Assembly: GCA_017452565.1 (NCBI GenBank)
Contig: JAFTMF010000171.1
Span: 1 to 47,056 of the forward strand
DNA length: 47,056 bases
Reading direction: 5' to 3'
Origin: Clostridia bacterium
GTDB lineage: Bacteria > Bacillota > Clostridia > Oscillospirales > CAG-272
The position numbers and the translations under genes were made by a program. Positions 1,864 through 31,455 of this stretch are shown here, in pieces. Every line of letters starts with the position of its first letter. The stretch's first letter is position 1. Below the pieces are notes generated by a model. That model did not search any database. It was given only the letters and a program-made list of their open reading frames with translations, and had not been told where the DNA came from.

Positions 1864-3444
1864 TTATTTCCCTGCGATATGCTCCATCGTCAGCCTGACC
1901 AGATCGCTGATTTTCACCGTTCCTACACCGAAAATCGTGGTATGGAGAGTGTCTTGGATAGGCTTCGTCCAATAGTCGGAAATGGACTGAATGCCGTTGG
2001 CCATTCCCAGAACGGAACCTACCGTAGCGCCGTTGCAGTCGGTATCAAAGCCTGTCTCCACCGCCATACAGATGGACTTGCCATAATCGCCGCCACCATA
2101 CAATAGCGATGCAGCCACGATCATTGCGTTGGAATTGGTGTGACACCAGCCGTGCTGCGAATACTCATCGTAGCGGCTGTGAATCAGATCAAAGCAAGCC
2201 TTTTGCGACGCTCCGCTTCGATAAGCCTCCAACACCGCCTGCACGTCCGCGTACAATCGAGAGGTGTGTGGAATCTCGCCAAGACCGCCCTCGATGATTT
2301 GCTCCACGTCAGCGGTAACTGCTGCGCAGGCGATCATTGCTGCCGCAAACATTTCGCCGTAGATGCCGTTTTTGATATGGGAAATAGAGGCATCCCGCCA
2401 AGCCATCTCTGCTGCACGCTCCGGATCGCCCGGATTGATATAGCCGAAATAGTCGCCTCTGATCTGCGCGCCGATCCATTCACGGTAGGGATTTTTATAG
2501 ATTGCCGACTCGGGTGGCACATAGCCTTTCACGAAATTGCAGAATGCAACCCGCTCTGCGGTACAATATGCGTCCTTGTTTTGCGAATACAGCCACGCCC
2601 GGGAGACATCGTAGGGGGTGAAATCTCTTCCGTATCGGCTGATGATCTCCTGCGCCAGCACCACGTAATTGGTGTCGTCGTCCACCGGCATTCCATCTAC
2701 TGCATCGGCGTACTCGCGTCCCATAAATCCGTAGGTGTATTTTTGAACGATTTCGCTATTGAGATCGCTTTTGTAAATATAGCGGTGCATCGGATAATTG
2801 CCCGTCTCTTTCAAAAACGGGATCAGTTCGTCTGTGCGGATGCCCTCCACGGTTTTGCCCAGCAGACAACCGCAGATTCTGCCCATCCATGCGCCGTGAA
2901 TCTTTTGCGCAAGACTATCGGGATCGTATACGGTAGGCATCGCAGGTCGCCGTCTGAGCGCCCGAATCTGTCCCAGTTCCGAGGGCTCGATGTACGGATA
3001 GCCTTCCCGTTGGGGAGCGTTTGCCACTACCTCGAACAACACGTCCCCCAGTTTTTTCTTGATCTCTCCCTTGGGAAGTCGGGAAACTGCAGCAAACACG
3101 TCCCGATAATGCTCGATATCCAGTCCCTCTTCCATAGATTGCTCGTACTCGATAAGCAAGTTGGAGGAATAAAACTCCCAATCGTGCAAATTCTGATACT
3201 GCGGCTTGATCACCTTGGTGTGCTTCATTTCTTCTACCACACGATTGTTGTTCCCGAGAATCAATGCGTCCAGAGAAACGTCAAAGTATTTGGTAATCAG
3301 AATGATCTTATCCAGATCGGGGGTTGCCAGATCACTCTCCCACTTTTGCACCGATTGTTGGGATACCCCAAACAGTGCGGAAAACTGCGCTTGCGTCAGC
3401 TTGGCTTCGGTTCGGATTTTATAAATCGTAGCTCCTATTTTCAT
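1864..3444 (-). CDS. XRE-family HTH domain fused to an ADP-ribosylglycohydrolase (ARH/DraG-like) domain
   Basis: 526-aa ORF. The N-terminus IYKIRTEAKLTQAQFSALFGVSQQSVQKWES is a Cro/C1-type HTH. The C-terminal ~330 aa carry the ARH motifs MPVDDDTNYVVL and GFDTDCNGATVGSVLG (metal-binding Asp clusters). Confidence 0.8.
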   Translation of the reverse strand: MKIGATIYKIRTEAKLTQAQFSALFGVSQQSVQKWESDLATPDLDKIILITKYFDVSLDALILGNNNRVVEEMKHTKVIKPQYQNLHDWEFYSSNLLIEYEQSMEEGLDIEHYRDVFAAVSRLPKGEIKKKLGDVLFEVVANAPQREGYPYIEPSELGQIRALRRRPAMPTVYDPDSLAQKIHGAWMGRICGCLLGKTVEGIRTDELIPFLKETGNYPMHRYIYKSDLNSEIVQKYTYGFMGREYADAVDGMPVDDDTNYVVLAQEIISRYGRDFTPYDVSRAWLYSQNKDAYCTAERVAFCNFVKGYVPPESAIYKNPYREWIGAQIRGDYFGYINPGDPERAAEMAWRDASISHIKNGIYGEMFAAAMIACAAVTADVEQIIEGGLGEIPHTSRLYADVQAVLEAYRSGASQKACFDLIHSRYDEYSQHGWCHTNSNAMIVAASLLYGGGDYGKSICMAVETGFDTDCNGATVGSVLGMANGIQSISDYWTKPIQDTLHTTIFGVGTVKISDLVRLTMEHIAGK

Positions 3445-3540
3445 AGAAATCCCTCCTTTGTAAATCTATTATACCAAAGAATTGAATCGGATGCAACTAT
3501 ATGAGAATTGTTAATTATACAACCGATAGTTGTGCGAGTA

Positions 3541-3574
3541 AAAAACACCGCCGAAGAGCAAGCTCCACGGCGGT
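3541..3574 (-). terminator. Rho-independent terminator ending the GRE operon
   Basis: The stem ACCGCCG (3547-3553) / CGGCGGT (3568-3574) is followed on the minus strand by GUUUUU (plus-strand A-run 3541-3545). It sits just downstream of the GNAT stop. Confidence 0.6.
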
Positions 3575-3591
3575 AGTTCATATTTATCGGT

Positions 3592-4083
3592 TCATTTTTG
3601 CAGTTTCAGCTCTTTGAGATAGACCCATTCTTCCGCGGATTGCTGTGGCGGATAGAATCCACCTGCTCTGCGGTAGTCCAGCTTCTCGTAAAACTGCCAC
3701 GCATCCTCGTCTGCTTGCGTGCTGGTCATCGCATATGAATAGCCGCACCTCTGCAGATCACGTTCCCACGTTTGCATCAGTAAGGTTCCCAGTCCCTGCC
3801 TCCGATACGGTTCGTCTATGTACAGCAGATCCAAAAATGGGATGGTCTGCCAGAATAGACTATATCGCAGTATGCCCATTACGGAATTCTTCCGTTTATC
3901 AAGGTTGCTATCGTCCTTGAGAACATAGACTTGACCGTTCTCGATGCATTCTTCTAACCGATTTTGCGGGATATGGCTATCCAGTTTTGCGATCGTCTGT
4001 TGATCTTTTTGTGTTGCAAGCTCTATAATCATAGCTATCTCTACCTCATCTGCCGTCACACTGCAGATCAGCGGAGCTTTCAA
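3592..4083 (-). CDS. GNAT-family N-acetyltransferase
   Basis: 163-aa ORF. YIDEPYRRQGLGTLLMQ matches the acetyl-CoA binding Q/RxxGxG/A motif. It overlaps the activase gene by 38 nt, which implies the same operon. The stop is TGA. Confidence 0.75.
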   Translation of the reverse strand: MKAPLICSVTADEVEIAMIIELATQKDQQTIAKLDSHIPQNRLEECIENGQVYVLKDDSNLDKRKNSVMGILRYSLFWQTIPFLDLLYIDEPYRRQGLGTLLMQTWERDLQRCGYSYAMTSTQADEDAWQFYEKLDYRRAGGFYPPQQSAEEWVYLKELKLQK

Positions 4084-4900
4084 TGATCCCCTTCAGGCAA
4101 GCGTACTGCTTGTCGGACAGACGCGCTTCCTCACCTAAGGTGTACGGCTCTCCCAGCAGCTCGTATTTATGAATCCCCAATTCGTGATAGCGCAGAGCTT
4201 CGGTCCGCCGGATATTGGGAAACCGATTCAGATAGTCTCTGATACGGTTTGCTTCCTCCTCGTTTGCGTTGAAGGTGCCAATCAGCGGCACTCTCACCCA
4301 AATGGGTGCGCCGCTTTCATACAAACGTTGGAAATTCTCCAAAATCCGATGGTTGGAGACGCCGGTAAATCGCTTATGCAGATCGGGATCGATACACTTG
4401 ATGTCATACAGAAACAGCTGGGCATAGGGGATCAGCTTTTCTATATTGGAGAAATCCACCGCTCCGCAGGTATCGATCGCCACACGGATGCCGCATATGG
4501 ACAGACGCTTGGCACATTCCAGCACAAAATCGCTTTGCAGAAGACATTCACCGCCGGAAAAGGTGACGCCGCCCTCGCCTGTGAAAAAGGCTTGGTCTTC
4601 CAGAAGCTCGTTCACCAGTTCGTCGGGGGTGTATTCCCTGCCCGCTACCGAAAGGGCTTCGGTGGGGCAACGGCCTGCACCGTCGGCAGTGTGTGCACCA
4701 CCACAGCTGCCGCAGGAAATGCACTTGCGGGCATCGTAGGTCACCGATGGGATGCGGGATAGTCCCTCGGGATTCTGACACCATTTGCACCGCAGCGGAC
4801 AGCCCTTCAGAAACACCGTGGTGCGAACGCCCGGTCCATCGTGGAGGGAGCACCGCTGGACGTTGAATACAACACCCTTGACAGCAGAATCAATATGCAT
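4046..4900 (-). CDS. Glycyl-radical enzyme activating protein (radical SAM)
   Basis: 284-aa ORF. It carries CSLHDGPGVRTTVFLKGCPLRCKWCQNPE (the GRE-activase signature with CxxxCxxC) and an extra ferredoxin-like Cys cluster, CISCGSCGG...RCP. Confidence 0.9.
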   Translation of the reverse strand: MHIDSAVKGVVFNVQRCSLHDGPGVRTTVFLKGCPLRCKWCQNPEGLSRIPSVTYDARKCISCGSCGGAHTADGAGRCPTEALSVAGREYTPDELVNELLEDQAFFTGEGGVTFSGGECLLQSDFVLECAKRLSICGIRVAIDTCGAVDFSNIEKLIPYAQLFLYDIKCIDPDLHKRFTGVSNHRILENFQRLYESGAPIWVRVPLIGTFNANEEEANRIRDYLNRFPNIRRTEALRYHELGIHKYELLGEPYTLGEEARLSDKQYACLKGIIESSADLQCDGR

Positions 4901-5837
4901 CGCTGAGTTTTTCCAGAATCTCCTGATCCAGTACGTAGTCGGACATCTCTAAGATTTCCTTCAGATGGTCACTGCGGGAGGAGGAGAAGAGCGGAATCAC
5001 GGTAGGACGGTTGGGCAGGCGATCCTGGGCGAGCAGCCACGCGATTACCAGCTTAGAGGGGGTCAGACCCAACTCCTTGGCGCATTCCAACAGAGTGTCC
5101 AGACGGGATCCGGTTTCGTAAAAATCGGGGAGGCGGGCGGGATCGTCATAGCCGCCCTTAGCAAGACAGGAGTAAGCTACCAGCGGAATATCGTTGGCCG
5201 CAAGATAGCGCAAACGCTCCTCTACGGCGTTAACGTTGAACTCGTACGCCAGTTTGTAGCCGCCCTTGGGGAAGAGATAGGTGTAGCAGGGCTGGTTTAC
5301 CGTATAATCGGCATATCCATTCTGCTGAGCGATATGCTTAGCCTCGCACATCCGCCAAGTGTAGAAGTTGCTGGCACCGATGGCACGCACCTTGCCCTGC
5401 TTCACCAAGCGGTCAAAGGCTTCCATCGTTTCTTCCAGAGGAGTGTTTTTATCATCGGTGTGGGCGTAGTAGAGATCAATATAATCGGTGCCCAGCTTGC
5501 GCAGACTTTCATCGCACCAATACTCGATCTGCTTTGCGGTCAGACCCGCACCTTCGCCGTGGCGGTCAAAGCCTACCTTGGTAGCAATCACCAGCTGGTC
5601 ACGGCATCCGCGATCTGCCAGATATTTGCCCAGCAGAGTTTCGCTCTCATCGCCCGATGCGCCCGGCCACCAATGTGCGTAATTGTTGGAGGTATCTAAG
5701 AAATTACCGCCCATCTCACGGTAGAGATCCAGCTGACGGAATGCTTCCGCTTCGGACACCTGCGTTCCGTACATCATCGTTCCCAGGCAGATATTGCTGA
5801 CAGTCAGACCTGCCCGCTTCAGTTCAACTTTTTTCAT
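4890..5837 (-). CDS. Aldo/keto reductase family oxidoreductase
   Basis: 315-aa ORF with LGTMMYG, FLDTSNNY, IATKVG and VRAIGASNF, the conserved AKR blocks. It overlaps the activase start by 11 nt. Confidence 0.9.
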   Translation of the reverse strand: MKKVELKRAGLTVSNICLGTMMYGTQVSEAEAFRQLDLYREMGGNFLDTSNNYAHWWPGASGDESETLLGKYLADRGCRDQLVIATKVGFDRHGEGAGLTAKQIEYWCDESLRKLGTDYIDLYYAHTDDKNTPLEETMEAFDRLVKQGKVRAIGASNFYTWRMCEAKHIAQQNGYADYTVNQPCYTYLFPKGGYKLAYEFNVNAVEERLRYLAANDIPLVAYSCLAKGGYDDPARLPDFYETGSRLDTLLECAKELGLTPSKLVIAWLLAQDRLPNRPTVIPLFSSSRSDHLKEILEMSDYVLDQEILEKLSDAY

Positions 5838-5870
5838 AATATATTCCTTCTTTCTGAATTATTCACTAAA

Positions 5871-7220
5871 TTAGAATGTGTTTCTGGTAATCAAATCGTC
5901 TTGCGCCCGCTTGCACATCTCCACGAATACCGCACTGTAGCCGGTGACACGCACCATCAGATCCCGATGGGCGTCCGGATTTTGCTGTGCTTCTACCAAA
6001 AGCTCCCGATTCACAGCGCTGAGTTGGATTTGCATACCGCCCTTTTCGAAATAGACCGCAAGGATATTGGCAAGATTGCGAAGTCCCTCTTCGCCTGCAA
6101 AATTCTTAGGTTGGATGGTGACGTTCAACGCACCCGATGCGAAGCTGGCAAAAGGAATATTCGCCAGCGACGTCAGCATTGCGGTGATACCGTTTTTCGC
6201 CGATCCTACCGACGGTTGGCTGTTCTGAGCGATGGGAGCGCCCTTCTTTCTGCCGTCCGGGGTAGCACCGTACTCGGCGCCCCGATCCATATGCCACGTA
6301 TCGTTTTCGATGCAGAAGCGCAAACGGAGGAATGGCGGCAAATCTCTGCAAGCGTCCTTGACCGCCCGCACAAGGGTTTCGGGGAGTGCTTTTGCCCAAT
6401 AGGAGGACAGTTTATGACCGTCGCCCAGCTTGGGAGCGTTCTTACAGAGGGCGTGGATCACGGCGTTGTTCTCAAAATCATTTTCGCAGGCAGCTAAAAT
6501 CTCGGCGGTGGATAGATGCTTTTCGTTAATCAGATAATCCATTGCCGCGGCAATATCGATGACGTTGGCCACTCCGCCGAAGGGAACGATCAGATTGGTT
6601 CGCTCAAAGAAGAGGCCGCCGTTTTCGATATTATCGTAGGCAAAGCAAGAATAAAACTGCAACAGGTGAGAATTGGGCTTGTTTTCCTTGGGCAGGATGG
6701 GAAGCGTATCACGGACAACCGTTGTGTAAAGGCAATCGTAGACCGTTTGCAAAAAGGCCTCTCGGTCAAAACCGTCGGACTCTCTGCAGTATTGCTTCAC
6801 CGTTTCCATAAACAGCGGCAACATCGCACGGGAAGCACCACGGAAGAAGGTGCCGTGATAGGGGCGATCCTTGCCCGGGATCGTCGGCCAGTTGCAGCCG
6901 AAATACTCGTGGGAAAGTGCGTCTTCCACGCTCTCACCGTCGTTTATATACATCGCACACTCGGTGATATCGTTGTACACCATCGCAGATGCGCTGGCGC
7001 GCAGCTTGGAAACGAAGGATTGCCAAATATCGGGATGCGCTTCCGCAAATCCCTCGGCATAGCGGAACACCACCACGGGGTTTTTGTACTTGGGATGAAT
7101 CCGCTCCACCAGTAGCGCAGTCAGCTCGTTGCCTACCGCCTTTTGGGTTTTAGGATCGAGTCCGACAGAATCAGATACTGCGGTGCATCGTAGCAAAGGA
7201 TGCGGTGCCAGCCGGTACAC
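5871..7220 (-). CDS. Glycyl radical enzyme, C-terminal fragment (Cys loop and Gly-radical domain); part of a frameshifted gene
   Basis: 449-aa ORF. The Cys loop is VEDALSHEYFGCNWPTIPGKD (Cys codon 6894-6896). The C-terminal glycyl radical motif is MVRVTGYSAVFVEM (Gly codon 5940-5942). The ORF overlaps the N-terminal fragment by 88 nt in a different frame. Confidence 0.85.
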   Translation of the reverse strand: MYRLAPHPLLRCTAVSDSVGLDPKTQKAVGNELTALLVERIHPKYKNPVVVFRYAEGFAEAHPDIWQSFVSKLRASASAMVYNDITECAMYINDGESVEDALSHEYFGCNWPTIPGKDRPYHGTFFRGASRAMLPLFMETVKQYCRESDGFDREAFLQTVYDCLYTTVVRDTLPILPKENKPNSHLLQFYSCFAYDNIENGGLFFERTNLIVPFGGVANVIDIAAAMDYLINEKHLSTAEILAACENDFENNAVIHALCKNAPKLGDGHKLSSYWAKALPETLVRAVKDACRDLPPFLRLRFCIENDTWHMDRGAEYGATPDGRKKGAPIAQNSQPSVGSAKNGITAMLTSLANIPFASFASGALNVTIQPKNFAGEEGLRNLANILAVYFEKGGMQIQLSAVNRELLVEAQQNPDAHRDLMVRVTGYSAVFVEMCKRAQDDLITRNTF

Positions 7221-8062
7221 ATCTCGTGTCCTGCACGCGCGGACATCTGATGCTCTCCTCTGCCCATAATCAGATTGTTCTTAGCATAGAAATCGTCGAT
7301 CAGGAGGGCGGCATCCTCTCGGCTGAGCACGCCTTCTGCGATATCCTGCCGATAGAGATCAATCAGGAAGAGATCCAATCGACCGATCGTCAGCGTGGGA
7401 TTGGGAGAAATGTAGGCGCAGAAGAAAAATTCGATAGACCAAATCAACTGCAGTGCACTGCGGAAGGTCGTGGGAGCGCCTTCTGCCGCAATCTTGCACG
7501 CTTCTGCTGCCTCTGTGAGACCTGCCTGCTCTGCGGCTTCGGCAGAGCGATAAAGGAAACGGATCAAAGCATCGTAGATCATCACACAGCCCTGCACGAA
7601 ATCCCGTTTTTCGCCGTTGCCTTCTGCTTCGAAGCGATCTCTCCACGATTCGGCGTAGGCCTTCATTGCGGGGAGTCCCATCCGAATCAGATCGTTCCAG
7701 CGGAAGGATTGATGACCGGGATCGGTAATGAAGCTCGGAATGCCTTCCATCCGCAACAGATCGTGAATATATTCATTGCGGAAGATCTCCTCTTCCTCAG
7801 GAGTAAAGCTTTCCTCCACCATTCTGCCAATCAGCAGATCGGTGTCCTTAACGGGAATGGAAACCTGCCCTACGAACCGACGCATTCCCTCGCCGTACCG
7901 GAGCGGCTGTGAGGAAATCTCTGCCACCTCTTTGGCAATCCGGCTCCACAGACGGACTCGCTCTGAGGAATAGGTAATCACCGGCTTTTGGGTCAGCGCG
8001 GCTATGGCTTCCCTTTCCATAATCCCGCGCAGTTCATCAATTTTGTATGTGCCAATATTCAT
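7133..8062 (-). CDS. Glycyl radical enzyme, N-terminal fragment; part of a frameshifted gene
   Basis: 309-aa ORF with PFL-like N-terminal domain character. It continues directly into the 5871-7220 ORF after a 1-nt frame change near 7150-7200. The combined length is about 730 aa. Confidence 0.75.
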   Translation of the reverse strand: MNIGTYKIDELRGIMEREAIAALTQKPVITYSSERVRLWSRIAKEVAEISSQPLRYGEGMRRFVGQVSIPVKDTDLLIGRMVEESFTPEEEEIFRNEYIHDLLRMEGIPSFITDPGHQSFRWNDLIRMGLPAMKAYAESWRDRFEAEGNGEKRDFVQGCVMIYDALIRFLYRSAEAAEQAGLTEAAEACKIAAEGAPTTFRSALQLIWSIEFFFCAYISPNPTLTIGRLDLFLIDLYRQDIAEGVLSREDAALLIDDFYAKNNLIMGRGEHQMSARAGHEMCTGWHRILCYDAPQYLILSDSILKPKRR

Positions 8063-8118
8063 AATCTTGCTCCTTCAAACAAATATTTGCAACATAGAAT
8101 TCAAATTGTACCGATCTC

Positions 8119-8146
8119 ATTATAGCAGAAATTCACAAAATGTCAA
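8119..8146 (-). promoter_or_regulatory. Sigma-A type promoter of the GRE operon
   Basis: The minus strand reads TTGACA (8146-8141), a 16-nt spacer, then TATAAT (8124-8119). It is about 55 nt upstream of the GRE ATG at 8062. Confidence 0.55.
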
Positions 8147-8233
8147 GAGATTCGCAGTATATACGTAGCGAAACCAACAAAGGATTTCTATGAATCTCTA
8201 TCCGTTATCCTGAATCTCCTCTGCGCTTTTCCC

Positions 8234-8268
8234 AAAACAAAATACCGTGTGCTTTCGCACACGGTATT
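8234..8268 (-). terminator. Rho-independent terminator after rplQ (end of the ribosomal cluster)
   Basis: The stem AATACCGTGTGC / GCACACGGTATT (8241-8268) has a TTTC loop. On the minus strand it is followed by UUUGUUUU. Confidence 0.75.
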
Positions 8269-10844: not shown

Positions 10845-11213
10845 TTACTTCTTCTTGTTTGCGATGGTCTTCTTAGGACCCTTTCTGGTTCTCGCGTTGG
10901 TTCTGGTTCTCTGACCTCTTACGGGCAGACCCTTTCTGTGACGGATGCCACGGTAGCAGTTGATCTCAACCATTCTCTTGATGTCGAGTGCAACGTCACG
11001 GCGGAGGTCACCCTCTACCTTGTAGTTGTTTTCGATCTCATCACGGAGCTTCGCTACGTCAGCTTCAGTCAGATCCTTCGCACGAGTATCGGGATCGATA
11101 CCGGTGGCTGCGAGAATATCGTTTGCACTCTTTCTGCCGATACCATAGATATAGGTAAGAGCAATCTCAACGCGCTTGTTATTCGGAATATCAACGCCTG
11201 CAATACGTGCCAT
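10845..11213 (-). CDS. rpsM: 30S ribosomal protein S13
   Basis: [26 protein letters not shown]; 122 aa. Confidence 0.97.
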
Positions 11214-11236
11214 ATTCTATTCTACCTTTCTTATAA

Positions 11237-11350
11237 TTAGCCCTGCTTCTGCTTGTGCTTGGGATTCTCGCAAATAACCATTACGATACCCTTTCTCTTG
11301 ATGATCTTGCACTTGTCGCAGATCTTCTTAACGGACGGTTTAACCTTCAT
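11237..11350 (-). CDS. rpmJ: 50S ribosomal protein L36 (Cys-containing form)
   Basis: My translation is [37 protein letters not shown] (37 aa). It is too short for the ORF track. Confidence 0.95.
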
Positions 11351-30728: not shown

Positions 30729-31379
30729 CTAACTCGAAAAATGCTGTTTAATTTTTTTGCGCACCCGATAGATGGCATTATCAATAGATTTATTAGAACG
30801 GTTCAACTGAATTGCAATCTCCTCGGCAGAGTACCCTGCAATGTACAAGCGATAAACCGATTTTTCAAAGTTAGAAAAAAGCGTATCAACCAGCTCAGAT
30901 AACTCTCCCATCTTCATCGACGCACGTCTGACAGATTTACGTTGATAGGAAGTCAGTACCGGTTTCGCTTTTACCGGGACGGGAGACAGTCTGCGATATT
31001 TACGAAGAGCAGAAATTAGACGGTTACGGATACAGATTTTTGCAAATAATCCGTAAGTGACCTCATTCTGGGATAAATCAAATTTCATCGCGGCATGATA
31101 CAGCGCAAGAGTAGCTTCCTGCATCAGATCGTTATACTCTGCGCTTTGCTCTTTTGCAAGAGCCCGTGAAACCATAGACTGTAAAAGAGCGCCGTACTGT
31201 TCTCGAAGCACGTCAAATGCAGATTCGTCACCCGCTTGAATTTGCTGAATGAGAGTTAATTGCGTCAAATCCACAGTTTGCTCCTGCCATTTTGAGTTAG
31301 GAAATGTAAAATTCAGACTACTTTTGTCACATTGCACAAAACCGAGCTGATTTTCACATTCAATTTTTATATTATTCAT
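30729..31379 (-). CDS. Sigma-70 family (group 4-like) RNA polymerase sigma factor
   Basis: The region 2-like block is DLMQEATLALYHAAMKFD...FAKICIRNRLISALRKYRR. The region 4 HTH is YRLYIAGYSAEEIAIQLNRSNKSIDNAIYRVRKKI. The gene is visibly more AT-rich than its neighbours. Confidence 0.75.
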   Translation of the reverse strand: MNNIKIECENQLGFVQCDKSSLNFTFPNSKWQEQTVDLTQLTLIQQIQAGDESAFDVLREQYGALLQSMVSRALAKEQSAEYNDLMQEATLALYHAAMKFDLSQNEVTYGLFAKICIRNRLISALRKYRRLSPVPVKAKPVLTSYQRKSVRRASMKMGELSELVDTLFSNFEKSVYRLYIAGYSAEEIAIQLNRSNKSIDNAIYRVRKKIKQHFSS

Positions 31380-31455
31380 TATATCACGATTTTACAATTT
31401 GTCAATACCTTATTCATATTTTTTATCTATGGTTTAAAATTCCGTGTTTTTCCAC

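What the first reader, a model, noticed from the sequence alone, without database searches (positions are those of the whole stretch)
3592..8146. Uncharacterised glycyl-radical-enzyme operon: GRE with a GCNWP loop, aldo/keto reductase, activase and GNAT
A strong promoter (8119-8146) and a terminator (3541-3574) bracket four genes: GRE, AKR, GRE-activase and GNAT.

The GRE has the canonical glycyl motif RVTGYSAVF. Its catalytic Cys loop, however, reads YFGCNWPTIPGK where the characterised eliminases and dehydratases (glycerol and propanediol dehydratase, CutC, HypD) have GCVEPxxxGK. The general-base Glu is replaced (VE becomes NW). The enzyme is also short, at about 730 aa.

Pairing with an NAD(P)H-dependent aldo/keto reductase suggests a carbonyl or aldehyde product that is reduced immediately, as in other GRE pathways. 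The missing Glu argues against a standard 1,2-elimination mechanism. A GNAT in the same operon is not part of any GRE pathway I know. Together these point to an undescribed GRE subfamily and substrate.
Basis: partly seen in the sequence, partly recalled or inferred. Interest (0 to 1): 0.65.

Follow-up and report, generated by a model that had tools for sequence, protein, structure and literature searches.

The report
Uncharacterised glycyl-radical enzyme with reductase partner
A gut Clostridia operon encodes a glycyl-radical enzyme from a clade nobody has characterised, which lacks the usual catalytic glutamate and travels with its own aldo/keto reductase, mostly beside sugar-degrading genes; the copy in this window carries a one-base frameshift.

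Summary
A perfect sigma-70 promoter (8146..8119) and an intrinsic terminator (3574..3540) bracket four minus-strand genes: GRE, AKR, GRE-activase and GNAT.

The GRE is split here by a single missing G at 7161-7163. Read through, it gives a 730-aa protein identical to an intact gene in a sister contig. Three other runs, one of them metatranscriptomic, carry the intact allele.

The Cys loop is correctly placed. GCNWP aligns with GCVEP of the solved eliminases, so the CXE glutamate is absent.

This is a clade signature. All 141 family members scored keep C390-N391, 97% have Trp or His next, and nearly all carry a GRGEHQ loop and D588. The His equivalent to glycerol dehydratase His164 is retained. 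No curated model or solved structure comes close (18-21% identity). No paper I could find describes the clade.

The AKR is a true partner. Orthologs flank the GRE across 35-100% GRE identity, are more conserved than the GRE, and lead back to it in reverse look-ups.

The GNAT is not a partner. It lies on a strain-variable 518-bp segment.

Neighbours are mostly glycoside hydrolases and sugar transporters, so a glycan-derived substrate is likely. The substrate and reaction remain unknown.

The parts
8119..8146 (-). Operon promoter: TTGACA, 16-nt spacer, TG-extended TATAAT
   Evidence: scores it 12/12 with TG. One search finds 0 exact matches expected by chance. It lies downstream of the rplQ terminator at about 8233-8267.
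8070..8076 (-). Ribosome-binding site GAAGGAG ahead of the GRE ATG (8062..8060). The leader is about 50 nt and holds no riboswitch.
   Evidence: Sequence read. Rfam gives no hit in the leader.
5871..8062 (-). Glycyl radical enzyme gene. It gives 730 aa when read through and is interrupted in this window by a 1-nt deletion.
   Evidence: 100% identical to the intact P0001. The AF2 model has pLDDT 93. Foldseek matches GRE folds at TM 0.73-0.79.
7161..7163 (-). Frameshift site. It reads GG here and GGG in intact alleles, between codons S300 and G301.
   Evidence: In one search, run X1's contig reproduces the deletion, while X2, X3 and RNA run X17 carry the extra base.
7712..7714 (-). Codon of His117. 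It is invariant in the family and aligns with His164 of glycerol dehydratase.
   Evidence: (profile alignment to 1r8w), (141/141).
6870..6905 (-). Cys loop YFGCNWPTIPGK. The catalytic Cys390 codon is 6896..6894. Asn391-Trp392 stand in place of the Val-Glu of CXE enzymes.
   Evidence: aligned with GCVEP/GCVET; family conservation; beta-hairpin 386-394 in the model.
5925..5951 (-). Glycyl radical motif RVTGYSAVF. The Gly708 codon is 5942..5940.
   Evidence: The model shows a hairpin at 703-712.
4890..5837 (-). Aldo/keto reductase, 315 aa, with tetrad D48/Y53/K87/H126. It is the conserved partner of the GRE.
   Evidence: Orthologs lie beside the GRE in 14 or more dereplicated loci at 57-94% identity.
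4046..4900 (-). Radical-SAM GRE-activating enzyme, 284 aa. It has C34-x3-C38-x2-C41 and a single auxiliary Cys motif (C60, C63, C66, C78). Its start overlaps the AKR stop by 11 nt.
   Evidence: (TIGR02494, 283 bits, above cutoff).
3592..4032 (-). GNAT acetyltransferase, 146 aa from the ATG and 13 nt after the activase stop. It is a strain-specific passenger inside the transcription unit.
   Evidence: It is absent from every other locus. Window 3573-4090 has no counterpart in L064.
3540..3574 (-). Intrinsic terminator that closes the operon
   Evidence: The same hairpin follows the activase directly in L064.
1864..3444 (-). XRE-type HTH fused to an ADP-ribosylglycohydrolase domain, 526 aa, with its own promoter. 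It stays next to the operon in close relatives and may be its regulator (inferred).
   Evidence: It is the neighbour in L001 and L064, but not at 77% GRE identity (L002).

Best explanation
This is one transcription unit from an uncultured gut Clostridia bacterium. It encodes a glycyl radical enzyme (GRE) of an uncharacterised clade, its dedicated aldo/keto reductase (AKR), its radical-SAM activase, and an accessory GNAT that is not part of the conserved system.

**Proposed working**
1. The activase cleaves SAM and puts a radical on Gly708 (inferred from family membership).
2. The radical passes to Cys390 at the tip of the Cys loop (inferred).
3. The thiyl radical abstracts a hydrogen from a carbon bearing or adjoining a hydroxyl, on a glycan-derived sugar, sugar acid or polyol. 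Asn391, Trp392 and a set of invariant polar residues would hold the substrate (inferred).
4. A C-O bond beta to the radical is cleaved. His117, the counterpart of glycerol dehydratase His164, would act as the acid. The base would come from somewhere other than the missing CXE glutamate. Candidates are E270/H271 of the invariant GRGEHQ loop, or D588 (inferred).
5. The resulting carbonyl compound is reduced by the AKR with NAD(P)H. Alternatively, the AKR makes the alcohol substrate (inferred from strict co-conservation).

In this particular strain the GRE gene carries a 1-nt deletion, so the pathway is probably inactive. Other strains carry and transcribe an intact copy.

**My estimates**

| Claim | Probability |
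|---|---|
| GRE with a cognate activase | 0.95 |
| GRE and AKR functionally coupled | 0.8 |
| Carbohydrate-derived substrate | 0.55 |
| C-O elimination or isomerisation chemistry | 0.45 |
For: **GRE identity**
- Pfam PFL-like plus Gly_radical.
- AF2 model with pLDDT 93 and a GRE barrel, with hairpins at 386-394 and 703-712.
- Foldseek matches all GRE eliminases and isomerases at TM 0.73-0.79.
- The activase scores above the TIGR02494 cutoff and has CX3CX2C.

**Distinct clade**
- The best curated model, TIGR01774, scores 190 bits against a cutoff of 678. All equivalog models fall far below their cutoffs.
- Over 141 members, C390-N391, H117, H271, Q272, D292 and Y296 are 100% conserved. E270 is 99%, D588 98%, and W392 87% with His in 10%.
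- About 21 full-length clusters at 50% identity carry these motifs among 1.84 billion representatives.

**Alignment to solved enzymes**
- GCNWP sits on GCVEP. H117 sits on GD His164. T223 sits on GD Ser282.
- The 2026 review states that all known eliminases and isomerases keep CXE (PMC13450708).

**AKR coupling**
- Adjacent orthologs are 94/78/67/58% identical where the GRE is 77/62/55/37-43% identical.
- Two AKR-first look-ups each land beside a GCNW GRE.
- AKR is the commonest non-activase family within 2.6 kb of the GRE.

**Glycan context**
- GH127 with an ABC sugar transporter and an AraC-type two-component system.
- GH95, GH38, GH43, GH42, GH2 and GH31.
- Heparinase II/III-like and Pel9A-like proteins, GDSL esterases, ROK kinase and Gfo/Idh/MocA oxidoreductase.

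**Operon unity and expression**
- Promoter and terminator.
- The AKR and activase genes overlap by 11 nt, and a 13-nt gap precedes the GNAT.
- Metatranscriptome contigs span the GRE/AKR junction and the activase/GNAT junction.

**Frameshift**
-.
- Logan's separate assembly of run X1, which holds 91% of the window's words and is probably the source sample, reproduces it. Three other runs carry the intact allele.
Against: - No substrate, product or activity has been shown for any member.
- The neighbouring glycoside hydrolases belong to many different families, so they do not single out one sugar.
- In the closest relatives (GRE 60-100% identical) the operon sits among housekeeping genes: the rplQ operon, Rnf, and 2-oxoacid:ferredoxin oxidoreductase.
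- Without a CXE glutamate, elimination chemistry is not assured. I could not inspect model coordinates, so the placement of E270, H271 and D588 in the active site is untested.
- The AKR is adjacent only in Bacillota members.
- Many members have no adjacent activase.
- The frameshift rests on contigs of about 6x depth, not on raw reads.
Confidence: 0.6

Rival explanations
1. It is an ordinary small-diol dehydratase, of the 1,2-propanediol or glycerol type, feeding on fucose- or rhamnose-derived propanediol. The AKR would act as lactaldehyde or propionaldehyde reductase.
For: - The top Foldseek hits are glycerol and propanediol dehydratases.
- The His164 equivalent is retained.
- GH95 fucosidase-like and rhamnosidase-like neighbours occur in some loci (the rhamnosidase call is my reading of L002).
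Against: - The CXE glutamate and GD Asp447 are absent in all 141 members.
- Identity to GD and PD is only 20-21%, no closer than to HypD, CutC or PflD.
- No microcompartment shell genes or aldehyde dehydrogenase appear in any neighbourhood.
- A longer active-site loop with two invariant Arg residues suggests a larger or charged substrate (inference).
Confidence: 0.12
2. The substrate is not a carbohydrate (for example an amino-acid derivative, an osmolyte or a xenobiotic), and the glycan-gene neighbours are incidental.
For: - In the window and its closest relatives the operon lies among housekeeping genes.
- The best single-sequence PDB hit is an N-methyl-hydroxyproline dehydratase.
- The AKR's nearest solved relatives reduce diverse ketones and aldehydes.
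Against: - Across phyla, the recurring non-activase and non-AKR neighbours are glycoside hydrolases, sugar ABC transporters, and AraC or LacI regulators.
- No amino-acid pathway genes recur.
Confidence: 0.2
3. The frameshift is a sequencing or assembly artefact, and the organism's GRE gene is intact.
For: - Depth in run X1 is only about 6x.
- It is the only coding indel in 18 kb against the sister contig.
- The site is a short G run.
- All relatives have an intact gene.
Against: - Logan's separate assembly of run X1, probably the source sample, gives the same deletion with no mismatch over 6202-7189.
- A GG/GGG miscall in most Illumina reads is unusual (general knowledge).
Confidence: 0.25
4. 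The GNAT is an integral fourth enzyme of the pathway, for example acetylating the substrate or the product.
For: - It lies inside the transcription unit, 13 nt after the activase stop and before the terminator.
- An RNA contig spans the activase/GNAT junction.
Against: - It is found only in the window and L001, out of roughly 65 loci examined.
- L064 has a GRE 97% identical, yet goes from the activase straight to the same terminator without the 518-bp GNAT segment.
- No GNAT family appears in the 25 most frequent Pfam families listed for each neighbourhood batch.
Confidence: 0.05

Closest known systems
B12-independent glycerol dehydratase (1R8W) and GRE 1,2-propanediol dehydratase (5I2G, 9RCO)
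   Same: - Same GRE barrel (Foldseek TM 0.75-0.78).
- A single catalytic Cys on a GC..P..PGK loop.
- The His164 equivalent (H117) and the Ser282 equivalent (T223) are conserved.
- A dedicated radical-SAM activase.
- In those pathways the product aldehyde is reduced by a partner oxidoreductase (general knowledge).
   Different: - 20-21% identity.
- Glu435 of CXE is replaced by Trp or His, and Asp447 is not conserved.
- About 50 fewer N-terminal residues.
- An extra invariant GRGEHQ loop.
- An AKR partner instead of an iron-type alcohol dehydrogenase.
- No microcompartment genes.
GRE isomerases YbiW/PflD (1,5-anhydroglucitol/mannitol-6-phosphate to 1-deoxyfructose-6-phosphate; 8ID7, 8ID0, 8YJO)
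   Same: - They are the only known GREs that act on sugars, cleaving a ring C-O bond next to a hydroxyl carbon (PMC13450708).
- Similar fold distance (TM 0.76-0.79).
- The family here also sits in sugar-utilisation loci.
   Different: - YbiW and PflD keep CXE (Glu443/Glu433).
- 19-21% identity.
- The NCBIfam PflD model (NF007437) scores 138 bits against a cutoff of 1109.
- The known pathway continues with aldolases, not an AKR.
HpzG/HypD hydroxyproline dehydratases (8IOF, 6VXC)
   Same: 8IOF is the best single-sequence PDB hit (E = 1.5e-48). The overall architecture is the same.
   Different: - They carry a CXE motif that binds the substrate hydroxyl.
- The equivalog model NF043068 scores 163 bits against a cutoff of 1100.
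- No proline-pathway genes are nearby.
Long-chain AKRs (AKR6/11/13/14-like: YghZ, Tas, IolS, DepB, MtmW)
   Same: The window AKR has the Aldo_ket_red fold and the D-Y-K-H tetrad. These proteins are its best PDB hits.
   Different: - Only the N-terminal 185 residues align well (E about 1e-32).
- No NCBIfam model reaches its cutoff.
- The subfamily is defined by its position next to GCNW GREs.

Membership tests
Glycyl radical enzyme superfamily (PFL-like) | PFL-like catalytic domain plus a C-terminal glycyl radical domain | tested here: met
   PF02901 at 6e-32 and PF01228 at 1.6e-22.
Glycyl radical enzyme superfamily (PFL-like) | Fingerprint RVxG[FWY]x6-8[FL]x4Qx2[IV]x2R (PMC13450708) | tested here: met
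   The sequence is RVTGYSAVFVEMCKRAQDDLITR. It fits, with Met in place of [FL] and Leu in place of [IV]. The family consensus has Ile at the latter position.
Glycyl radical enzyme superfamily (PFL-like) | Ten-stranded barrel with Cys and Gly finger loops meeting in the centre | tested here: met
   The AF2 model has pLDDT 93.2 and pTM 0.93, with hairpins at 386-394 and 703-712. Foldseek probability is 1.00 to more than 40 GRE chains. I could not read coordinates, so loop contact was not measured.
Glycyl radical enzyme superfamily (PFL-like) | Cognate radical-SAM activase with CX3CX2C | tested here: met
   The gene lies in the same operon. TIGR02494 scores 283 bits against a cutoff of 174, and C34/C38/C41 are present.
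Glycyl radical enzyme superfamily (PFL-like) | Formation of a stable glycyl radical | not testable with these tools
   Needs anaerobic activation and EPR.
GRE 1,2-eliminases and isomerases (GD, PD, HypD, HpyG/HpzG, CutC, IslA/IseG, HpsG/HpfG, HplG, YbiW/PflD) | [quoted passage not shown] | tested here: not met
   The loop reads C390-N391-W392. Of 141 members, 0 have Glu at C+2.
GRE 1,2-eliminases and isomerases (GD, PD, HypD, HpyG/HpzG, CutC, IslA/IseG, HpsG/HpfG, HplG, YbiW/PflD) | Score above the curated family or equivalog cutoffs (TIGR01774, NF043068, TIGR04394, NF048011, NF007437 and others) | tested here: not met
   Scores against cutoffs are 190/678, 163/1100, 134/1050, 180/1000 and 138/1109 bits.
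GRE 1,2-eliminases and isomerases (GD, PD, HypD, HpyG/HpzG, CutC, IslA/IseG, HpsG/HpfG, HplG, YbiW/PflD) | General-acid His on the first barrel strand (GD His164) | tested here: met
   H117 aligns with His164 and is 141/141 conserved.
Formate lyases (PFL/TdcE) | Two adjacent cysteines on the Cys loop | tested here: not met
   The loop has a single Cys followed by Asn. TIGR01255 scores 70 bits against a cutoff of 994.
GRE decarboxylases and X-succinate synthases | Family-level sequence similarity and small accessory subunits | tested here: not met
   NF033715 scores 115/1150 and NF033718 scores 117/1100 bits. BSS and MASS are the weakest structural matches. There is no room for small-subunit genes inside the operon.
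Aldo/keto reductase superfamily (the AKR gene) | Aldo_ket_red domain and the catalytic tetrad Asp-Tyr-Lys-His | tested here: met
   PF00248 at 5e-59. D48, Y53, K87 and H126 are present.
GNAT acetyltransferases (the fourth gene) | Acetyltransf_1 fold with the acetyl-CoA-binding R/Q-x-x-G-x-G/A motif | tested here: met
   PF00583 at 4.8e-12. The motif reads RRQGLGT.

The most novel reading that the evidence does not exclude
The GCN[WH]P/GRGEHQ clade catalyses a GRE reaction type not yet described. It would be a radical transformation of a glycan-derived sugar, such as deoxygenation, or cleavage of an ether, anhydro bridge or other C-O or C-C bond. It would use a catalytic base relocated off the Cys loop and would be obligatorily coupled to a dedicated AKR. 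This would give anaerobes of guts and sediments an oxygen-free route for sugar modifications that hydrolases cannot handle.
Probability: 0.3. Interest if true: 0.85.

Novelty: new variant of a known kind. Interest (0 to 1): 0.6.

Why it matters
- **A mechanistic gap.** Every characterised GRE eliminase and isomerase uses a Cys-x-Glu loop. This clade is well delimited, and all of its members lack the Glu while keeping the rest of the radical machinery. It therefore either does different chemistry or reaches the same chemistry with a different base. Either answer would widen what is known of GRE mechanism.
- **Wide distribution.** The clade occurs in ruminant and human gut Clostridia, where it is transcribed. 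It also occurs in Latescibacterota, Planctomycetota, Lentisphaerota, Poribacteria, Armatimonadota and Chloroflexota MAGs, usually beside glycoside hydrolases and sugar transporters.
- **A possible missing step.** It may be an unrecognised step in anaerobic glycan breakdown.
- **A practical assay handle.** The tightly co-evolving AKR offers a direct read-out through NAD(P)H consumption.
- **An annotation problem.** In public records the family is labelled 'hypothetical', 'formate C-acetyltransferase' or 'hydroxyproline dehydratase'. The copy in this window is deposited as a 449-aa fragment.

Tried and rejected
1. **Greedy longest-ORF gene calling** of fetched loci. It produced antisense shadow ORFs and hid some AKR genes. 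I replaced it with all-ORF clustering, BLAST and the precomputed gene tables.
2. **An apparent link between the GRE and ADP-ribosylglycohydrolase genes** in L009, L010, L014 and L038. In L055, the same place as L010, the match is only to the HTH domain. I dropped the link beyond the closest relatives.
3. **A search for a riboswitch or other RNA element** that might name the ligand. There is none in the operon leader or in eight related loci. A cobalamin riboswitch in L007 belongs to a divergent neighbouring operon.
4. **A second CXE-type loop elsewhere in the protein.** The only other C-x-E (CRE, near residue 425) lies in a variable region that relatives do not conserve.
5. **Literature searches** for this clade, for GRE with AKR, and for GRE with glycoside hydrolases found nothing relevant. 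Levin et al. 2017 was not held.
6. **Programmed frameshifting** was rejected. All relatives have an uninterrupted frame.
7. **Active-site geometry from the model.** Coordinates are not exposed, so residue placement rests on sequence alignment to solved enzymes.
8. **The terminator scan** missed the operon terminator. Folding recovered it.

Full report
**1. What is in the sequence**

Four close-packed genes lie on the minus strand between 8146 and 3540.

- *Upstream boundary.* The rplQ gene of the alpha ribosomal operon ends with its own hairpin and T-run at about 8267-8233.
- *Promoter.* TTGACA, a 16-nt spacer and TG-extended TATAAT follow at 8146..8119, scoring 12/12. An exact match to that consensus occurs twice in the 47-kb window, against none in 100 shuffles.
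- *Translation start.* A leader of about 50 nt and a GAAGGAG ribosome-binding site precede the ATG at 8062.
- *Genes.* The order is a PFL-like glycyl radical enzyme (5871..8062), an aldo/keto reductase (4890..5837), a glycyl-radical activating enzyme (4046..4900) and a GNAT (3592..4032).
- *Spacing.* The AKR stop and the activase start overlap by 11 nt. The GNAT ATG lies 13 nt after the activase stop.
- *Terminator.* A hairpin ACCGCCG...CGGCGGT with a T-run at 3574..3540 closes the unit, at -28.4 kcal/mol and z = -3.8.

**2. The GRE gene is broken in this window**

- It reads as two overlapping ORFs in different frames, 7133..8062 and 5871..7220.
- Joining them at LILS|GLDPKT needs one extra G at 7161-7163. 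The result is a 730-aa protein.
- That protein is 100% identical to an intact protein, P0001, from an ENA metagenome contig.
- The contig, L001, is 99.86% identical to the window over 18 kb. It differs by 20 substitutions, a 4-nt intergenic indel at 5847, and this single G.
- Logan's separate assembly of the run holding 91% of the window's words (X1, probably the source sample) reproduces the deletion at about 6x depth.
- A second run from the same study, an unrelated run, and a metatranscriptome all carry the extra base.
- I therefore read it as a probable strain-level pseudogene. An artefact is not excluded, because raw reads were not available.
- The window's contig is in GenBank, where the GRE appears only as the 449-aa C-terminal fragment.
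- The metatranscriptome contigs cover parts of all four genes. They span the GRE/AKR junction and the activase/GNAT junction, which fits co-transcription of an intact allele in a gut community.

**3. Is the Cys loop correctly placed?**

Yes.

- In pairwise HMMER alignments to HpzG (8IOF) and glycerol dehydratase (1R8W), YFGCNWPTIPGK sits on the GCVET/GCVEP...PGK loops.
- A profile built from 60 family members gives the same placement.
- The AlphaFold model, built from that 60-sequence alignment, has pLDDT 93.2 and pTM 0.93. It puts residues 386-394 and 703-712 in the two beta-hairpins expected for the Cys and Gly loops.
- Foldseek returns only GREs. The eliminases and isomerases are about equidistant, at TM 0.73-0.79 and 18-21% identity.
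- The only other C-x-E in the protein lies in a variable, non-conserved stretch.

[quoted passage not shown] The 2026 review by Imrich et al. says all characterised eliminases and isomerases retain that glutamate, and that it hydrogen-bonds to the substrate (PMC13450708).

**4. It is a clade, not a one-off**

- The search of 5.8 billion proteins returned 181 relatives at E <= 1e-20 among the candidates scored. The 120 best listed are 702-789 aa long, and nearly all carry GCN[WH]P and R[VI]TGYS.
- Against 1.84 billion representatives at 50% identity, about 21 full-length clusters score 640-1079 bits with the family profile and share the family motifs.
- Below them comes a graded series of other short GRE-like clades with still other Cys loops (GCND, GCCN, GCNN, GCS.).
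- Ordinary CXE enzymes appear only at about 320-355 bits.
- Over 141 members, C390, N391, H117, H271, Q272, D292 and Y296 are invariant. E270 is 99%, R268 and R287 are 99%, and D588 is 98%. Position 392 is Trp in 87% and His in 10%.
- No curated NCBIfam model reaches its cutoff. The best is TIGR01774 at 190 bits against 678.
- H117 aligns with His164 of glycerol dehydratase, and T223 with Ser282. Glu435 and Asp447 have no counterpart.
- The segment that in other GREs contributes active-site aromatics (GD Tyr339) is about 12 residues longer here. It holds the invariant KNNLI-GRGEHQ...TGW.R...YDAPQY motifs, and part of it is modelled with low confidence (residues 271-290).
- That these residues replace the missing base is my inference. 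I could not read model coordinates.

**5. Which neighbours are conserved?**

I fetched 51 loci from species-representative genomes and about 20 more by exact protein look-up.

*Activase.* It is adjacent in about 20 loci.

*AKR.* An ortholog lies within about 1.1 kb of the GRE in 14 or more dereplicated loci. It is more conserved than the GRE itself:

| AKR identity to the window AKR | GRE identity to the window GRE |
|---|---|
| 94% | 77% |
| 75-78% | 60-62% |
| 66-67% | 53-57% |
| 57-58% | 37-43% |

- Starting instead from two arbitrary AKR homologs of about 60% identity, both proved to lie immediately downstream of a 742-760 aa GRE.
- Those GREs carry GCNW, GRGEHQ and NPTLT, and are 35-37% identical to the window's GRE.
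- The GRE-AKR pair is therefore a reciprocal, co-evolving module, at least in Bacillota.
- The AKR has the D48/Y53/K87/H126 tetrad. It has no close characterised relative.

*GNAT.* It occurs only in the window and L001.

- In L064 the GRE is 97% identical in protein and the DNA is 92% identical. There the activase is followed directly by the same terminator and the same HTH/ADP-ribosylglycohydrolase gene.
- Window 3573-4090, which carries the GNAT, has no counterpart in L064.
- The GNAT is a strain-variable passenger, not a pathway component.

**6. Context**

- A Pfam tally covered 208 ORFs within 2.6 kb of the GRE in 52 loci. It gives Radical_SAM 19, Aldo_ket_red 10 (16 by BLAST), URO-D-like 6, GH127 4, GH95 3, GDSL 3, GH38 2 and heparinase II/III-like 2.
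- Gene tables add several more settings:
  - an AraC-type two-component system, an ABC sugar transporter and GH127 directly upstream of GRE-activase, with GH31 and GH42 beyond;
  - GH38, GH43 and GDSL;
  - tandem GRE paralogs after a heparinase II/III-like gene;
  - a Pel9A-like beta-helix protein;
  - LacI and GH2;
  - a xylose-isomerase-like TIM barrel, Gfo/Idh/MocA, ROK kinase, SDR and AraC ahead of GRE-AKR-activase;
  - GH42 or GH2 next to GRE-AKR.
- The hosts are uncultured Clostridia and Oscillospiraceae of ruminant and human guts. They also include Latescibacterota, Planctomycetota, Victivallales/Lentisphaeria, Poribacteria, Armatimonadota, Chloroflexota and others.
- In the window itself the neighbours are housekeeping genes, apart from an FGGY kinase and a GH32 protein further downstream in L001.
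- The glycoside hydrolase families differ from locus to locus. They point to carbohydrates in general rather than to one sugar.

**7. Most likely working**

- *Shown by sequence or structure prediction:* a GRE fold, Gly and Cys loops, a cognate activase, a catalytically complete AKR, a single transcription unit, and absence of the CXE Glu.
- *Inferred:* the radical is installed on Gly708 and relayed to Cys390. A hydrogen is abstracted from a hydroxylated carbon of a glycan-derived sugar, sugar acid or polyol. A beta C-O bond is cleaved, with H117 as acid and a relocated base (E270/H271 or D588). The AKR then reduces the carbonyl with NAD(P)H, or the AKR acts first and makes the alcohol substrate.
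- *Estimates:* about 0.8 that GRE and AKR act in one pathway, 0.55 that the substrate is carbohydrate-derived, and 0.45 that the chemistry is elimination or isomerisation.
- *Rivals:* a plain diol dehydratase, a non-carbohydrate substrate, an artefactual frameshift, and an integral GNAT. Each is scored in its own section of this report.

**8. Comparison and novelty**

- The protein meets every sequence and fold criterion of the GRE superfamily.
- It fails the defining CXE test of the eliminase and isomerase classes, the two-Cys test of the formate lyases, and all curated equivalog cutoffs.
- It works like a GRE. It cannot be filed under any characterised class.
- No paper in the held library describes it. 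The review notes that entire clades remain unvalidated.
- I rate it a new variant of a known kind, with interest 0.6.
  - In its favour: the clade is coherent, widespread and transcribed, has an unusual active site, and comes with a ready-made coupled assay.
  - Against it: no function is shown, unannotated GRE clades are expected, and this particular copy is broken.

Noticed in passing
window 11181-11283 (-): A match to the Rfam Alpha_RBS element (alpha operon leader) below the gathering score, at 29.9 against 38 bits and E = 0.001. It lies upstream of the rpsM-rpsK-rpsD-rpoA-rplQ block that ends just before the GRE operon.
   Followed up: no
window 31378-31405 (-): A second exact TTGACA-N16-TATAAT promoter, again with a TG-extended -10. 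It sits in a low-GC stretch with no ORF of 220 aa or more and no tRNA or Rfam hit nearby. The transcript it drives was not identified.
   Followed up: partly
window 1864-3444 (-): A fusion of an XRE-type HTH domain with a full ADP-ribosylglycohydrolase domain (526 aa). It stays directly downstream of the GRE operon in L001 and L064, although the upstream context differs between them. It may be a ligand-sensing regulator.
   Followed up: partly
window 4046-4900 (-): The activase has only one auxiliary Cys motif (C60, C63, C66, C78). Most GRE activases have a two-cluster ferredoxin-like insert. Activases of more distant family members still show Fer4 hits.
   Followed up: partly
L055 5754-10175 (the same place as L010; also L009): Two GCNW-type GRE paralogs of 724 aa each lie in tandem. 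They follow a heparinase II/III-like gene and an M48 peptidase, and precede a Dabb-domain protein, a GDSL esterase and a GH43. No AKR or activase is adjacent.
   Followed up: no
Proteins P0143-P0202 (for example P0164, P0168, P0171, P0176): Further short (about 700-790 aa) GRE-like clades also lack CXE. Their Cys loops read GCND, GCCN, GCNN or GCS[TR], and some have unusual Gly motifs such as RQTGFSEYF or RMYGFSEYF. They look equally uncharacterised.
   Followed up: no
L019, L022, L024, L026, L032, L040, L041, L049 (cluster 6): URO-D-like proteins (the uroporphyrinogen decarboxylase / methyltransferase-like fold) recur near the GRE in non-Bacillota members and in L041. Six lie within 2.6 kb.
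   Followed up: partly
L007 7648-7785 (-): A cobalamin riboswitch lies just upstream of the GRE locus, but on the opposite strand. It serves a divergent operon of small membrane proteins.
   Followed up: no
window 5847 (GRE-AKR intergenic region): A 4-nt indel (TTCT/AGAA) distinguishes strains, within the 33-nt spacer that holds the AKR ribosome-binding site.
   Followed up: no
window 5871-7220 (-): The public GenBank record of this contig lists only the 449-aa C-terminal GRE fragment as a protein. Family-level searches that start from that record would miss the N-terminal 300 residues.
   Followed up: yes
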